DNA of 38,141 nt from Bacillota bacterium (GTDB lineage: Bacteria > Bacillota > Clostridia > Christensenellales > CAG-138): assembly GCA_016288175.1 (NCBI GenBank), contig JAEEYN010000222.1, forward strand, positions 1-38,141. The letters are read 5' to 3'. The notes beneath the pieces were generated by a model. That model saw nothing but the letters and a program-made list of their open reading frames with translations. It ran no database searches and was not told the DNA's origin. Position 1 is the first letter of the stretch; each line of letters opens with the position of its first letter. Shown in pieces: positions 12,754-17,066 of this stretch. A program made the translations under genes and the position numbers.

Positions 12754-13884
12754 TCAGCCTGCTGCGACCTGGCGCATGATGAGAATTGCGTCGGTTGTGT
12801 TGACGCCGCCCCGGCCGTTCATGTCGGCGTTGACAAGGCCCTGTTCGGTGATTTCCGCAAGACCCATGGAGTAACGCATAACGAGCAGAGCGTCGGAGGA
12901 ATTCACAGCGCCGTTGCAGTCCGCGTCGCCGAGAAGAGTGACTTCGGGACCGACGGGCGTTTCGCTGAATTTCGCGATAAAAGTCGAGGGAAGCTGTTCA
13001 TCCGCCGACGGCATCCAATTCGCATCCTCCGAAAGCAGGTTGTCCTCTCCGTCATACCAACCGATGAACTCTTCGCCTTCATCCGCTGTCGCAATATGCC
13101 ACATGTCGGGTCTGTCATCCAAAACATAATCGTAGCATGCAACAGTGCCGTTTCCGACCGCAATAATGCTTTCAAAGCCAAACTTATCTGCGTTCACTTT
13201 GATTTCCTTGAGGGGATTGTCCAGGCAGCCGATTTGAGTCAGATCAGTGCAGAGTGATACATCCAGCACCGTCAGATTATTGTTGCTGCATTCCAGGCAC
13301 GGTATGCTCGGGCATCCGCTTACGTCAAGGAAGGACAGTTGGTTATCAGAGACGTCAATGCCGAAATTCAGCGCGGCATGATCACCGCTGAGATCGAGCG
13401 ATTCGATCGCGCACATATTGCAGGTCAGTTCCTGAATGAGGCTGCTCCCCGTTACGTAAAGCGAAGTCAGCGTTTCACACATGCTGCAGTCGAGGCTGAT
13501 CAAAGCCGGGCAATTCGATGCATCTACAGACGTCAGGTTATTGCTTGCGCAATAAAGCATATCCAACTCGGTGAAGCCGCTGACATCCAGATCTCCGACA
13601 AGCTCTTTGTTCGGGATGGAGATCATGTTCACATGACCGCCGACCCAATAGATGTCGCAGCCCCAGGAATTCGGATCTTCCGGATCGACCGTATCTCAGA
13701 GCTTCGATGCATTGGTCACGCCGTCTGCGTCTTCGAGTCGGAGAAATGCTGCCATCTTGTTGTACTCGTATTCGTCATAGCTTTCCGGTACTTCGCGGTG
13801 CATTTCTGCGATCGCAAAGACAGGAACGACCGCAAGCACCATCATCAGCGCGATGATTGAGCTTAGGATCCGTTTTACTTTCAG
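12754..13884 (-). pseudogene. Leucine-rich-repeat + dockerin secreted protein, interrupted by an in-frame TGA (13696-13698) and lacking an ATG start
   Basis: The frame upstream of the 292-aa ORF encodes a signal peptide (KVKRILSSIIALMMVLAVVPVFAIAE) and runs in the same frame into TGA. The LRR units include LTSVDASNCPALISLDCSMCETLTSL. The dockerin reads DADCNGAVNSSD...DMNGRGGVNTTD. The only start-like codon after the GGAG is a CTG at 13884. Confidence 0.6.
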
Positions 13885-13947
13885 TTTTTTCTCCGAAGTT
13901 TTTCACGGCCGCACGGCCTTGCTTCAGGCGGAAGTGTTCCGCCGGAT

Positions 13948-13977
13948 AACATAATTCTTATACCATATTGCAGTCAA
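13948..13977 (-). promoter_or_regulatory. Possible promoter for the LRR-dockerin (pseudo)gene
   Basis: Minus strand reads TTGACT-18 nt-TATGTT, followed by two short hairpins (GGCGGAA-cac-TTCCGCC and GGCCG-tg-CGGCC) before the RBS. Confidence 0.35.
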
Positions 13978-13995
13978 AAAGAAAAGCGTAATATA

Positions 13996-14823
13996 TCACT
14001 TGCCTCTGTTTTTCAGTATCCTGCGAATGATCGCGTACTGCAGGCGGTCCGGCAAAGCGTTCATTATCAGCAGCAGCGGGTTGCGGTTGATCTTGTAGAC
14101 ATACTTCGGGTGTTTTGCACGGGCAGCACGACTTGCGAGCGCGGCGATCTTTTCGGGCGGGACTTTTCGCGCCTCCACCCTTCCGACGATGCTTTTGAAG
14201 CGTTCGGCGTTGCAGCGATACAGCTTTGTATTATCGATAAAATCATCGAGCCGCTTTGTGGAAACATCGAGAAGGCCCGTATCAACAGCACCGGGCCGGA
14301 TCAGTATCACGCGATGACCGAGAAGCTGCAGCTCCATCCGCAGCGAATAGGCGTATTGTTCAACTGCGGTCTTCGTAATCGCGTAAATGCCTGTGAACGG
14401 AAGCGGGTCGAGCGGCGCAAGCTCGCTCGAAACGATGATGATCCTTCCGTTCGGCTTGAGCAGGGGCAGAAAAGCTTTGTTAACGCGGTAATCGGAGAAA
14501 AGATTGACGTCGAAGATGCGTTTGAAATCCGTTTCATCCATCTCCACGAGCGAATTGAGATCATACATCCCCGCCATATTGATGATGTAGTCGAGTTTTT
14601 CGCCGGATGCTTTCAGTTTCGCCGCAGCTGCATTCACGGAATCGCCATCGGTCAAGTCGGTTTTTATGAAGTCAAAACCATCCGTTGACTCCGGCTCGCT
14701 GATATCGAGACCGAAAACGCGGCAGCCCTCCGATGAGAATTTTTTAACGGCGGCTGAGCCCATGCCGCCCGCCGCGCCGGTTATCAAAACAGTTTCTTTG
14801 CTTTCAGATTCGGTCTTTATCAT
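13996..14823 (-). CDS. Short-chain dehydrogenase/reductase (classical SDR)
   Basis: TGAAGGMG cofactor motif, catalytic YAITK (YxxxK), and an upstream SSE Ser. The start overlaps the upstream gene by 20 nt. Confidence 0.85.
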   Translation of the reverse strand: MIKTESESKETVLITGAAGGMGSAAVKKFSSEGCRVFGLDISEPESTDGFDFIKTDLTDGDSVNAAAAKLKASGEKLDYIINMAGMYDLNSLVEMDETDFKRIFDVNLFSDYRVNKAFLPLLKPNGRIIIVSSELAPLDPLPFTGIYAITKTAVEQYAYSLRMELQLLGHRVILIRPGAVDTGLLDVSTKRLDDFIDNTKLYRCNAERFKSIVGRVEARKVPPEKIAALASRAARAKHPKYVYKINRNPLLLIMNALPDRLQYAIIRRILKNRGK

Positions 14824-15241
14824 CGTTTTTGCTCAATATGGCGTCGAGAATCTCAAAGAGCTCATCATCGTTTTGATAAGGATAGATGCTGAAGTACGGG
14901 TCGCCTGTCAGCATCGCCGAAAGCTGCGCCTTTGTCTTATCATAGAAGATGTGGCATGGCGTTCCGAGCTTTTCCGCATAGGCGAGCTCATAGCCGACGC
15001 CGAGAGAAGGACAGGTGCATTCCGCGATCAGAATGTCGGCTTCGCGCAGCCAGGCGGTATCCTGCTCATAGATCTCCGCGTCGCGGTCACGCCCGAGCTC
15101 CAAAGCGCTGAGCTGCGGGCTGCCGACATGCTCGGTCAGAACAACATCGGTCCGCTGCATGTATTCGATCATCCGGCGGTAAAGTTCCGCATCGACCCGC
15201 CCTCCGCGGATCGAACCCGCAAAATAGATTTTTCTTTTCAT
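14804..15241 (-). CDS. DNPH1/Rcl-like 2'-deoxynucleoside 5'-phosphate N-hydrolase (nucleoside 2-deoxyribosyltransferase superfamily)
   Basis: MKRKIYFAGSIRGGR...LY.R...VLTEHV...IYEQD..WL..AD...PSLGVGYEL...LSAM aligns block for block with human DNPH1 as I remember it. The ATG at 15241 overlaps the upstream stop (ATGA). Confidence 0.8.
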   Translation of the reverse strand: MKRKIYFAGSIRGGRVDAELYRRMIEYMQRTDVVLTEHVGSPQLSALELGRDRDAEIYEQDTAWLREADILIAECTCPSLGVGYELAYAEKLGTPCHIFYDKTKAQLSAMLTGDPYFSIYPYQNDDELFEILDAILSKNDDKDRI

Positions 15242-15885
15242 ACGCTCTTCCTCCAAATTTCGAGATCCGTTACAGCCGAACAGAGCATTTCCTCCGGCTT
15301 CACTCCCGGATCGATCCACTGCGCTGTCTTTTCCTCCGGCAGAATCAGGGGCATCCTGTCATGGATCCTCGCAAGTTCTGCTGTCGGAGCGCGCGTTAGA
15401 ACAACGAATTTCGGAAGGCCGGCCTCCATTCGGTAGAGTCCGCAAAGGAAAACTTCCTTCCCGTTTTTCGGGCGTATCGACCAGCGCTCACCCGTCCTTT
15501 TCCGCCCGTTTTCGGAGGGGATATGCTCCCATTCGAAATACCATGAGGCCGGAATTATGCAGCGCCTGCTCCGCCATGATGGTGCGAAAGCGCGTTTCTC
15601 CCCCGCCGTCTCCGCCCGTGCGTTGAAAACATCGCATGTCGGGAGAGTCTGTCCTTCGGCCGGCGGTTTGAGGCTGAAGCCCCACTGCATCGGGAATACG
15701 GTTTCAATTTCTTTTTTATTCAGCGCGATAGCTGGCGTTACTGATGCCGGACCGACTTCCCCGCTCTGCAGGATCGGCGACGCAAGAAGGCTGCGGAACC
15801 TGTCTGCAAGCGGGCTCACGTTCGCCGTTTCGGCAAGTTCCCTCAGCCGTTTTGAATCCCTGTCGATAAAAAACCTTACGCACAT
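15238..15885 (-). CDS. SOS-response-associated peptidase (SRAP; YedK/HMCES family) abasic-site sensor
   Basis: Start MCVRF places Cys at position 2. The conserved FNARAET, WYFEWE and IHDRMP blocks are present. The ATG lies 2 nt after the upstream stop. Confidence 0.85.
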   Translation of the reverse strand: MCVRFFIDRDSKRLRELAETANVSPLADRFRSLLASPILQSGEVGPASVTPAIALNKKEIETVFPMQWGFSLKPPAEGQTLPTCDVFNARAETAGEKRAFAPSWRSRRCIIPASWYFEWEHIPSENGRKRTGERWSIRPKNGKEVFLCGLYRMEAGLPKFVVLTRAPTAELARIHDRMPLILPEEKTAQWIDPGVKPEEMLCSAVTDLEIWRKSV

Positions 15886-15887
15886 AT

Positions 15888-16442
15888 TCAGCGATCCTTT
15901 CCGATCCAAAGCATCAGGCAGCGATGTGTTTTTCCTCTGTATTCAATGCTTTCCGTTTCGCCTGTGAAGCGCATACCGCTCTTTTCCATCACGCGCCTGC
16001 TCGCGGTATTTTCCTCAAAACAGCCCGCACGAACTGTTTCAAAGCCGAGACGGAACAGCTCCGCAATCGCGGTTTTAAGCATCTCTGTCGCAAATCCGCG
16101 GTTTTTATGCTCGGGGTCGACAACATAGCCGAGTTCGATAGCATTTCCTTCAACGCAGGTATCGTTGAGAAAGCCGACGGCAGTATCGCCGAAAAGCGCA
16201 AGATAAATAAAATGCCCGTCGGAATTCGAAAGCGCTTTCATCCTTTCGAACAGACGGACAGCTTCATCCTCCGAGGAAAAATCGGGGATCATATAGGTCT
16301 TTTTGATCTCTTCGTTATAGAAAAGCCGAAGCAAAGTCTCCCTGTCAGCGCCTGTCAGCGGCCGCAGATTAAGCCGCTCCGAAGCAAGATCCCGGCTTCG
16401 TAAAGCAAGTTTATTGATGAATTGTATTCGGTTATCGCTCAC
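15888..16442 (-). CDS. GNAT N-acetyltransferase (RimJ/RimL-like)
   Basis: ERLNLRPLTGADRETLLRLF N-terminus and the RGFATEML...GF acetyl-CoA motif. I chose the GTG at 16442 because a TTGCAT-17-TATACT promoter lies inside the longer track ORF. Confidence 0.75.
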   Translation of the reverse strand: MSDNRIQFINKLALRSRDLASERLNLRPLTGADRETLLRLFYNEEIKKTYMIPDFSSEDEAVRLFERMKALSNSDGHFIYLALFGDTAVGFLNDTCVEGNAIELGYVVDPEHKNRGFATEMLKTAIAELFRLGFETVRAGCFEENTASRRVMEKSGMRFTGETESIEYRGKTHRCLMLWIGKDR

Positions 16443-16475
16443 GAATTTCCCTTTCGCATTATTTTCCTTTGAGTC

Positions 16476-16504
16476 AGTATAGCATCCCCGCGCTTTCAAT
16501 GCAA
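16476..16504 (-). promoter_or_regulatory. Sigma-A-type promoter of the GNAT-SRAP-DNPH1-SDR operon
   Basis: Minus strand reads TTGCAT-17 nt-TATACT. Confidence 0.55.
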
Positions 16505-16549
16505 GCGCCGTTTTTATAGCCCCGTCTTTTTCAAAAACGATATGTTGTC

Positions 16550-16578
16550 TTGACTTCCGGCGCGGATTATGGTAGTAT
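16550..16578 (+). promoter_or_regulatory. Sigma-A-type promoter (divergent) for the small membrane protein gene
   Basis: TTGACT-17 nt-TAGTAT with a TG extended -10 (TGgTAGTAT). A perfect palindrome AGTATATACT follows at 16585-16594. Confidence 0.6.
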
Positions 16579-16676
16579 GATTTCAGTATATACTATATGC
16601 GATCCTTCTGCCTGCGTTCAACAGACGGCATGGACGCCGAGGTTTATGAAATCCACTGAAAGAGAGGTAATTCACT

Positions 16677-17066
16677 ATGGATCTTAAAAAAACAATGATC
16701 AGATTCGGTATCTGCTTCCTGGTCGGTTTTTTGCTTGCGCTTGCCGTATGGGGTGTTTTGGGCCCGAACGGTGATTTCCACGGTGCGGCTGCGCTTGCAT
16801 GGATCGCCCGCATCATCATTTTCCTGCTTATCTTTGCGCTGTTCTATTGGATCGTGCTCGGCATCATGATGTCGAAAGCCAAAGGCGCCGCCGCAATCGT
16901 TCCGACAGTGATCATCTCCGCTCTTATTGCGCTGTTCGTAACGTTCCTCTGCACATGGACCGCGAGATGGACCTCTGGAACTTTCTTCGGTCTGCTGCCG
17001 CTGACCGTCGTCAACGCGCTGATCCTCTTCCTTGTGCTCTCGAAGCTCAATATTCCCCACAAATGA
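16677..17066 (+). CDS. Small integral membrane protein, function unknown
   Basis: 129 aa with about four hydrophobic helices. AGAGAGGT RBS, its own promoter and a strong terminator. Confidence 0.55.
   Translation: MDLKKTMIRFGICFLVGFLLALAVWGVLGPNGDFHGAAALAWIARIIIFLLIFALFYWIVLGIMMSKAKGAAAIVPTVIISALIALFVTFLCTWTARWTSGTFFGLLPLTVVNALILFLVLSKLNIPHK

What the first reader, a model, noticed from the sequence alone, without database searches (positions are those of the whole stretch)
13996..16504. Tight four-gene operon joining an SRAP abasic-site sensor to a DNPH1-like nucleotide N-hydrolase, a GNAT and an SDR
The gene junctions are a 2-nt gap (GNAT/SRAP), an ATGA overlap (SRAP/DNPH1-like) and a 20-nt overlap (DNPH1-like/SDR). 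One promoter (TTGCAT-17-TATACT) lies upstream. The SRAP keeps the N-terminal Cys2 (MCVRF) and the Asn/Glu/His blocks needed for covalent capture of abasic sites in ssDNA, as established for YedK/HMCES. The next protein aligns along its whole length with DNPH1/Rcl (YFAGSIRGGR, VLTEHV, PSLGVGYEL, LSAM). That family cleaves the glycosidic bond of dNMPs. The human enzyme acts on hydroxymethyl-dUMP, and the bacterial relatives MilB and BlsM act on (hydroxymethyl)CMP. So an enzyme that strips bases from possibly modified nucleotides is coupled to a protein that shields base-less DNA. This suggests a dedicated module for sanitising modified nucleotides or tolerating the resulting damage. Such a module could also matter against phages that use hydroxymethylated bases. 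I know of no described bacterial system with this linkage.
Basis: partly seen in the sequence, partly recalled or inferred. Interest (0 to 1): 0.62.

Follow-up and report, generated by a model that had tools for sequence, protein, structure and literature searches.

The report
Clade-restricted SRAP plus DNPH1-like operon
Four tightly packed genes in a cattle-gut Clostridia bacterium join an abasic-site shield (SRAP) to a close bacterial counterpart of the human nucleotide sanitiser DNPH1, but the pairing arose once in a small clade and recurs nowhere else I sampled, so it is a suggestive local operon and not a general system.

Summary
Four minus-strand genes (GNAT, SRAP, DNPH1-like, SDR) are joined by a 2-nt gap, an ATGA overlap and a 20-nt overlap. 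They lie behind a TTGCAT-17-TATACT promoter with a TGn extension.

- **Active sites:** SRAP keeps Cys2, Asn88, Glu118 and His175. The DNPH1-like protein keeps every catalytic and hmdUMP-contact residue of human DNPH1.
- **Where the linkage occurs:** it is confined to one clade of ruminant-gut Christensenellaceae-like bacteria. SRAP-DNPH1-SDR occurs in four lineages whose SRAPs form one clade. GNAT is present in three of the four. The sister clade has SRAP alone.
- **Where it does not occur:** 0 of 79 other species' DNPH1-like loci hold an SRAP. 0 of 80 metagenomic and 0 of 26 viral SRAP loci hold a DNPH1/NDT-like gene.
- **Partners elsewhere:** SRAP relatives sit in Y-family polymerase / LexA-like operons. 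DNPH1-like genes mostly stand alone. In one lineage the gene is fused to a YjjG noncanonical pyrimidine nucleotidase, which supports a pool-sanitising role.
- **Defence:** no defence-family match and no phage homologue were found.

The nucleotide-sanitiser reading of the hydrolase is supported. The "dedicated module" idea rests on one evolutionary event, and the anti-phage idea has no support. Interest is moderate to low.

The parts
16476..16504 (-). Promoter: -35 TTGCAT (16504-16499), 17-nt spacer, extended -10 TGcTATACT (-10 hexamer 16481-16476)
   Evidence: Read. GCGCTTGCATTG and TGnTATACT are invariant in window, L001 and L177, while the surrounding sequence diverges. Not listed by the consensus scanner because the -35 is weak.
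15888..16442 (-). GNAT acetyltransferase of the Acetyltransf_3 (RimJ/RimL-like) type, 184 aa, GTG start. Substrate unknown.
   Evidence: PF13302 E=9e-24. Only weak NCBIfam and PDB matches. The start is homologous to the ATG in L001. Present in L001 and L188, absent in L177.
15238..15885 (-). SRAP (YedK/HMCES family) abasic-site protein, 215 aa, N-terminus MCVRF
   Evidence: PF02586 E=1.3e-33. Matches YedK structures at E=2e-10, with NAR, FEW and HDR motifs aligned. C2 is nearly invariant and N88, E118 and H175 are invariant in 19 homologues.
14804..15241 (-). DNPH1/Rcl-like 2'-deoxynucleoside 5'-phosphate N-hydrolase, 145 aa
   Evidence: PF05014 E=1e-13. Rat and human DNPH1 structures match at E=9e-26 and 3e-24 over the full length. 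Y6, I11, R12, E37, H38, D54, I57, D61, S79, E85 and S108 are invariant in 20 homologues. By alignment and spacing they correspond to human Y24, I29, R30, E55, H56, D73, I76, D80, S98, E104 and S128.
13996..14823 (-). Classical short-chain dehydrogenase/reductase, 275 aa (TGAAGGMG, YAITK). Substrate unknown.
   Evidence: PF00106 E=4e-33. Only generic NCBIfam and PDB matches, all below the family cut-offs. Follows the DNPH1-like gene in all four linked lineages.

Best explanation
This is a lineage-specific operon of ruminant-gut Christensenellaceae-like Clostridia. One extended -10 promoter probably drives GNAT, SRAP, a DNPH1 counterpart and an SDR as one transcript.

SRAP most likely acts like YedK. 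After Met removal, Cys2 forms a thiazolidine link to ring-opened abasic sites in single-stranded DNA.

The DNPH1-like enzyme most likely acts like mammalian DNPH1. It would be a dimeric N-glycosidase that uses Glu85 as nucleophile, with Tyr6 and Asp61. It would hydrolyse non-canonical pyrimidine dNMPs, with hmdUMP the best guess, to free base plus deoxyribose 5-phosphate. That keeps them out of DNA.

The two activities fit a loose 'genome hygiene' theme and are co-expressed in this clade. They are not an obligate two-part system, because each gene has other partners or none outside the clade. The roles of GNAT and SDR are unknown.

Shown here: gene order, junctions, residue conservation, distribution. 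Inferred: enzymatic activities, co-transcription, any pathway link.
For: - Anatomy and domains.
- Active-site conservation.
- Conserved promoter footprint.
- The block occurs in L001 (proteins 77-79% identical), L177 (SRAP 59%, DNPH1 79%, SDR 75%, no GNAT) and L188 (GNAT 56-59%, SRAP 53%, DNPH1 72%, SDR 71%), always with tight junctions.
- The linked SRAPs form one clade, and the sister clade has SRAP alone.
- Absent elsewhere: 0/79, 0/80, 0/26 viral, and two further stand-alone DNPH1-like genes.
- SRAP relatives sit with a Y-family polymerase (24/80) and an HTH-S24 protein (10/80).
- The DNPH1-like gene is fused to, or overlaps, a YjjG-family noncanonical pyrimidine nucleotidase (TIGR02254, 166 bits against a cut-off of 160) in another Clostridia lineage.
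- An NTP pyrophosphohydrolase lies two genes upstream of it on Selenomonas pSRC2.
Against: - Retention of SRAP-DNPH1-SDR in 4 of 4 sampled descendants, with partly changed flanks (desulfoferrodoxin upstream in L188, acyltransferase downstream in L177), could reflect selection for a real joint function.
- An earlier unchecked note reports an NDT-like gene coupled to an SRAP in another genome.
- Sampling limits: the genome scan kept only the best 80 of 503 species, 73 of them Bacteroidota. 
- Co-transcription is not shown. The only runs labelled RNA gave low-depth contigs, one run is identical to a run labelled DNA, and the contigs also cover the promoter region.
Confidence: 0.6

Rival explanations
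1. Dedicated module. The four proteins act in one pathway. DNPH1 removes hmdUMP or similar nucleotides. SRAP shields the abasic sites that arise when such bases are still incorporated and excised. SDR and/or GNAT process the released base or the reactive deoxyribose 5-phosphate. This would be a bacterial parallel of the mammalian DNPH1 / SMUG1 / HMCES axis.
For: - Tight or overlapping junctions and a conserved promoter in all linked lineages.
- The block is kept in 4 of 4 sampled descendants while SRAP diverged to 53% identity.
- All hmdUMP-contact residues are conserved.
- DNPH1 and HMCES are discussed together in the human literature on hmdU-induced damage.
- DNPH1-like genes also neighbour other genome-integrity genes: YjjG, an NTP pyrophosphohydrolase, and AlkZ-rel in 17/80 loci.
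- Two earlier unchecked notes point the same way.
Against: - One evolutionary origin only.
- 0/79, 0/80 and 0/26 elsewhere.
- The flanks are also largely syntenic among these relatives, so retention may be simple vertical inheritance.
- GNAT is dispensable, since it is absent in L177.
- SDR and GNAT give no specific functional match.
Confidence: 0.22
2. Small-molecule (nucleoside antibiotic or modified-base) pathway. The DNPH1-like enzyme would work like MilB/BlsM together with the GNAT and SDR, and SRAP would be a bystander sharing the promoter.
For: - MilB/BlsM relatives release (hydroxymethyl)cytosine for nucleoside antibiotics.
- In Apilactobacillus kunkeei plasmids, a DNPH1 homologue sits 1 nt before a ThyA-like gene, the MilA/MilB pattern.
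- GNAT and SDR are typical tailoring or resistance enzymes (established knowledge).
Against: - The window protein has His38 where MilB has Glu62. It also keeps the second phosphate-binding Ser (S108), which MilB lacks.
- There is no ThyA-like hydroxymethylase or other biosynthetic gene in the operon or its flanks.
- The family is about 70-79% identical across more than 8000 clusters in two phyla and mostly stands alone, which fits a housekeeping role.
Confidence: 0.06
3. Anti-phage defence module aimed at phages with hydroxymethylated bases.
For: - In two Bacillota genome bins, the DNPH1-like gene overlaps a gene for a 1120-aa TIR + WD40 protein, an architecture seen in immune proteins.
- One SRAP relative lies next to a STAND-like protein and a PemK toxin.
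Against: - No PADLOC match for any of the four proteins.
- No tblastn match of the hydrolase in 50,697 phage records.
- The window's flanks are not a defence island.
- There is no compositional anomaly.
- The arrangement is vertically inherited in its clade.
Confidence: 0.03

Closest known systems
Mammalian DNPH1 (Rcl), 5-hydroxymethyl-dUMP N-hydrolase (PDB 4fyh, 9i3q, 8os9)
   Same: - Full-length alignment, E=9e-26 (rat) and 3e-24 (human).
- Same catalytic Tyr/Asp/Glu triad.
- Same Glu-His pair, base-stacking Ile residues, Arg-Asp pair and two phosphate-binding Ser residues.
   Different: - Bacterial, and part of a very large gut/rumen family named only 'nucleoside 2-deoxyribosyltransferase' by its sources.
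- No NCBIfam model matches it.
- Activity and substrate are untested.
- Here it is encoded in an operon with SRAP.
E. coli YedK / human HMCES (SRAP, PF02586)
   Same: N-terminal Met-Cys. Asn, Glu and His align with YedK N75, E105 and H160.
   Different: - Only about 44 bits to YedK.
- It belongs to a Clostridia subfamily whose other members sit behind Y-family polymerase and LexA-like genes, the context described by Aravind et al. 2013 (PMC3765255).
- This copy has lost that context, and no GAAC-N4-GTTC (Bacillus-type LexA box core) match, even with one mismatch, lies within the operon or its promoter (13996-16504).
MilB / BlsM (hm)CMP N-glycosidases of nucleoside-antibiotic pathways
   Same: Same fold and catalytic mechanism. 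MilB acts on a hydroxymethylated pyrimidine nucleotide.
   Different: - MilB uses Glu62 where this protein has His.
- MilB lacks the second Ser contributed by the partner subunit.
- MilB is paired with a ThyA-like hydroxymethylase, which is absent here.
YjjG-type house-cleaning nucleotidase linked to DNPH1-like (fusion P0241, found here)
   Same: Shows the same DNPH1-like family recruited to handling of non-canonical pyrimidine nucleotides.
   Different: The partner is a HAD phosphatase, not a DNA-binding SRAP. It occurs in a different Clostridia lineage.

Membership tests
SRAP (PF02586; YedK/HMCES) | Profile match above the curated threshold | tested here: met
   116.8 bits against a cut-off of 27.1.
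SRAP (PF02586; YedK/HMCES) | Cys directly after the initiator Met, plus the Asn/Glu/His catalytic residues | tested here: met
   MCVRF. N88, E118 and H175 are invariant in 19 homologues and align to the YedK NAR, FEW and HDR motifs.
SRAP (PF02586; YedK/HMCES) | Covalent thiazolidine crosslink to abasic sites in ssDNA | not testable with these tools
   Needs a biochemical assay.
DNPH1/Rcl subfamily of PF05014 | Profile match above threshold and full-length similarity to solved DNPH1 structures | tested here: met
   PF05014 at 51.8 bits against 28.8. PDB 4fyh at E=9e-26 over residues 1-123.
DNPH1/Rcl subfamily of PF05014 | Catalytic Tyr/Asp/Glu triad and two phosphate-binding Ser residues | tested here: met
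   Y6, D61, E85, S79 and S108 are aligned and invariant.
DNPH1/Rcl subfamily of PF05014 | Base-recognition residues of the hmdUMP complex (His56, not the Glu of MilB; Arg30-Asp73; Ile29/Ile76; Glu55) | tested here: met
   H38, R12, D54, I11, I57 and E37, mapped by alignment and spacing to the residues named in PMC10603095.
DNPH1/Rcl subfamily of PF05014 | N-glycosidase activity on dNMP or hmdUMP | not testable with these tools
   Needs an enzyme assay.
Operon (single transcription unit) | Co-directional genes with short or overlapping junctions behind one promoter | tested here: met
Operon (single transcription unit) | One transcript spanning all junctions | tested here: inconclusive
   The runs labelled RNA gave sparse contigs. 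One run duplicates a run labelled DNA, and the DNPH1/SDR junction is not spanned.
Conserved multi-gene system (functional module) | The gene pairing recurs in unrelated lineages or through independent origins | tested here: not met
   One clade only. 0/79, 0/80 and 0/26 elsewhere. Sampling was incomplete.
Known anti-phage defence systems (PADLOC) | A match to any defence-system protein model | tested here: not met
   0 families for all four proteins.
SOS/translesion-synthesis-linked SRAP operons (Aravind et al. 2013) | Neighbouring Y-family polymerase, LexA-like or ImuB genes, or a LexA box | tested here: not met
   None in the window's flanks. No GAAC-N4-GTTC match within 13996-16504, including the promoter. 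The context is present for relatives at 42-52% identity.

The most novel reading that the evidence does not exclude
The SRAP-DNPH1-SDR(-GNAT) block is a real bacterial 'modified-pyrimidine hygiene' pathway that parallels the mammalian DNPH1/SMUG1/HMCES axis. In a rumen habitat rich in salvaged, modified DNA, DNPH1 would destroy hmdUMP-type nucleotides and SRAP would cap the abasic sites left when such bases escape into DNA. The SDR would detoxify the aldehyde product deoxyribose 5-phosphate or oxidise the released hydroxymethyl base. If the earlier unchecked note of an NDT-like gene coupled to an SRAP in another genome holds, the pairing of N-glycosidase-fold enzymes with SRAP would have arisen more than once.
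Probability: 0.2. Interest if true: 0.6.

Novelty: new member of a known kind. Interest (0 to 1): 0.36.

Why it matters
If the coupling were functional, it would give a simple bacterial model for how nucleotide-pool sanitation and abasic-site shielding cooperate. That link currently rests on human cancer-cell work on DNPH1, hmdU and HMCES.

A more solid result is that gut and rumen bacteria of two phyla carry a very large, strongly conserved family with every substrate-contact residue of human DNPH1. Members are 70-79% identical across Bacteroidota and Bacillota. Sources name the family only 'nucleoside 2-deoxyribosyltransferase'. Its fusion to a YjjG nucleotidase points to non-canonical pyrimidine nucleotide clearance. 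This is cheap to test and would correct a widespread annotation.

The operon itself is a local arrangement, so a specialist would find it mildly interesting, not surprising.

Tried and rejected
- RNA evidence: two runs labelled RNA-Seq hold the stretch, but one is identical to a run labelled DNA. Depth is 2-5 and contigs are 150-450 nt, some over the promoter region, so nothing can be said about co-transcription.
- LexA/Cheo-box search: no GAAC-N4-GTTC match lies within the operon or its promoter, and the window-wide count is not above chance.
- Terminator scan: no canonical minus-strand terminator after the SDR gene.
- My first conclusion, 'only one other species', was wrong. It came from the similarity-ranked 80 loci, and look-ups by exact protein then found L177 and L188.
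- The DNPH1-like tree is too poorly resolved (138 columns) to date or source the acquisition.
- My first motif regex failed its positive control. The corrected version recovered 77 of 80 controls.
- GNAT and SDR searches against PDB and NCBIfam gave only generic matches.
- Earlier-findings look-ups by sequence and by relatives returned nothing.
Full report

Yes. The minus strand of 13996-16504 carries four consecutive ORFs.

| Gene | Pfam family | E-value |
|---|---|---|
| GNAT | Acetyltransf_3 (PF13302) | 9e-24 |
| SRAP | PF02586 | 1.3e-33 |
| DNPH1-like | Nuc_deoxyrib_tr (PF05014) | 1.1e-13 |
| SDR | adh_short (PF00106) | 4e-33 |

- TGA-at-ATG between GNAT and SRAP, a 2-nt gap.
- ATGA shared by the SRAP stop and the DNPH1-like start.
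- The SDR ATG at 14823 lies 20 nt upstream of the end of the DNPH1-like stop (14804).

The promoter is TTGCAT (16504-16499), 17 nt, then TATACT (16481-16476), and the -10 is preceded by TG. The consensus scanner does not list it because the -35 is weak. However, GCGCTTGCATTG and TGnTATACT are invariant in two related species while the spacer and flanks differ. That footprint argues for a real promoter.

One correction: the longest GNAT ORF begins inside this promoter. GTG at 16442, homologous to the ATG used in L001, is the likely start.

**2. What are the proteins?**

SRAP begins Met-Cys. Its Asn88, Glu118 and His175 are invariant among 19 homologues and align with the NAR, FEW and HDR motifs of YedK.

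The hydrolase aligns over its whole length with rat and human DNPH1 structures, at E=9e-26 and 3e-24. The structural paper on human DNPH1 (PMC10603095) names these residues:
- the catalytic triad;
- Glu55 and His56;
- Ile29 and Ile76;
- the Arg30-Asp73 pair;
- the phosphate-binding Ser98 and Ser128'.

By alignment and spacing, these correspond to Y6/D61/E85, E37/H38, I11/I57, R12/D54 and S79/S108. All are invariant in a 20-sequence alignment of bacterial homologues. MilB has Glu where DNPH1 has His56 and lacks the second Ser, so the window protein is DNPH1-type and not MilB-type.

GNAT and SDR give only generic matches.

**3. How far does the linkage reach?**

The DNPH1-like family is very large. 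About 8000 clusters score at 70-79% identity, and they come mostly from gut and rumen Bacteroidales but also from Bacillota.

*From the DNPH1 side.* A scan of one genome per species found 503 species with a relative, and the best 80 loci were kept. Only L001 (Christensenella sp. UBA1214) has GNAT-SRAP-DNPH1-SDR. This was checked by tblastn and by an SRAP profile on six-frame translations.

*From the SRAP side.* The 80 best metagenome loci (42-52% identity) hold no DNPH1-like gene, no NDT-motif ORF, and no similar GNAT or SDR. 63 of those loci have at least 500 nt downstream of SRAP. 26 viral SRAP loci hold none either.

*Exact-protein look-ups then corrected my first impression.*
- P0123 (SRAP 59% identical, locus L177) has promoter-SRAP-DNPH1-SDR without GNAT.
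- P0128 (53% identical, locus L188) has GNAT-SRAP-DNPH1-SDR behind a desulfoferrodoxin gene.
- P0124 and P0125 (55-56% identical) have SRAP alone. One of them follows the same C_GCAxxG_C_C gene as in the window.
- P0127 also has SRAP alone.

An SRAP tree puts the four linked sequences in one clade (97/80 support), with the unlinked P0124/P0125/P0126 as sister. So the linkage arose once, or was lost once in the sister clade, and it has been kept in all four sampled descendants.

Flanking genes are also partly syntenic among these genomes. Retention alone is therefore weak evidence for joint function.

**4. What do the partners do elsewhere?**

Relatives of this SRAP sit downstream of three recurring neighbours:
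- a Y-family polymerase (IMS domains), in 24 of 80 loci;
- a small protein, in 27 of 80 loci;
- an HTH-S24 LexA-like protein, in 10 of 80 loci.

This is the classic SOS / translesion-synthesis context (PMC3765255). The window copy lacks that context. No GAAC-N4-GTTC match lies within the operon or its promoter.

DNPH1-like genes have no dominant neighbour. The best neighbour cluster is found in 19 of 80 loci. Several contexts are informative:
- In an Oscillospiraceae lineage, the gene is fused in frame to a YjjG-family noncanonical pyrimidine nucleotidase. The match to TIGR02254 is above its curated cut-off. The fusion is seen in four assemblies and its cluster has 27 member sequences.
- In a relative, the same two genes are separate and overlap by 4 nt.
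- On Selenomonas pSRC2, an NTP pyrophosphohydrolase lies two genes upstream.
- In 17 of 80 loci (Bacteroidales), an AlkZ-related gene lies 0-2 genes downstream.
- In Apilactobacillus plasmids, it precedes a ThyA-like gene, as in MilA/MilB.
- Two more homologues stand alone.

The YjjG fusion is independent support for a nucleotide-pool sanitising role.

**5. Defence?**

None of the four proteins matches PADLOC. The hydrolase has no tblastn match in 50,697 phage records. The flanks encode kinases, dockerin proteins and a MerR regulator, and base composition is unremarkable.

**6. Transcription**

The only runs labelled RNA give sparse contigs. One run is identical to a run labelled DNA, and contigs also cover the promoter region. 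Co-transcription is therefore inferred from the anatomy and has not been shown.

**7. Verdict**

The anatomy is right, and both key proteins look catalytically competent. The DNPH1-like enzyme is best read as a bacterial DNPH1 counterpart that clears non-canonical pyrimidine dNMPs.

The pairing with SRAP is a single-origin feature of a small clade. It is thematically coherent and not described in the papers I could search. It lacks the recurrence that would mark a dedicated system.

My odds:
- about 0.6 for 'local operon of two genome-hygiene genes plus two generic enzymes';
- about 0.2 for a true pathway;
- little for biosynthesis or defence.

Two earlier unchecked notes from other genomes keep the bolder reading alive. 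One reports an NDT-like gene coupled to an SRAP. The other reports a cassette of a SMUG2-type glycosylase with NDT/DNPH1-fold enzymes. I could not test either.

Noticed in passing
L030:2702-3859 (also L190-L193); L189:3049-4199: A DNPH1-like domain is fused in frame to a YjjG-family noncanonical pyrimidine nucleotidase (383 aa; cluster P0241 with 27 member sequences, seen in four assemblies). In a relative, the same two genes are separate and overlap by 4 nt.
   Followed up: partly
L003:4627-8423 and L002:4633-8417: In two rumen Bacillota genome bins, the DNPH1-like gene overlaps the end of a gene for a ~1120-aa protein with an N-terminal TIR domain and WD40-like repeats. This architecture is typical of immune sensors.
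   Followed up: partly
17 of loci L001-L080 (e.g. L045:8417-9085, L053:4766-5437): An AlkZ-related gene (PF24741, E=2e-67) lies 0-2 genes downstream of the DNPH1-like gene in many Bacteroidales. It is unclear whether this is shared synteny or a functional link.
   Followed up: partly
L195:3998-5465 (Apilactobacillus kunkeei plasmids); L194:2919-4468 (Selenomonas pSRC2): A DNPH1 homologue sits 1 nt before a ThyA-like gene, inside a cluster with an ATP-grasp ligase (a MilA/MilB-like pair). On pSRC2, an NTP pyrophosphohydrolase lies two genes upstream of the homologue.
   Followed up: no
L097-L176 (e.g. L112, L114, L155): Clostridia SRAP genes 42-52% identical to the window's sit behind a Y-family polymerase (24/80), an unannotated ~85-110-aa protein with no Pfam match (27/80) and an HTH-S24 LexA-like protein (10/80).
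   Followed up: partly
L185:4001-8636: An SRAP gene (P0127) lies directly upstream of a gene for a 1370-aa DUF4062 / NPHP3_N (STAND-like) protein, with a PemK toxin gene nearby.
   Followed up: no
window 14804-15241 and loci L001-L080: The DNPH1-like protein is 70-79% identical between Bacillota and Bacteroidota of the gut and rumen. That is far more conserved than its neighbours (SRAP falls to 53-59% within the clade). No NCBIfam model matches it.
   Followed up: partly
runs X18 and X19 laid on window 13600-16900: A run labelled DNA and a run labelled PolyA RNA-Seq from the same sample give identical contigs, so they are probably one data set filed twice.
   Followed up: no
window 16476-16515; L001:6733-6766; L177:3733-3766 (approx.): The block GCGCTTGCATTG around the -35 is conserved beyond the hexamer itself in three species. 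It might also be an operator.
   Followed up: no
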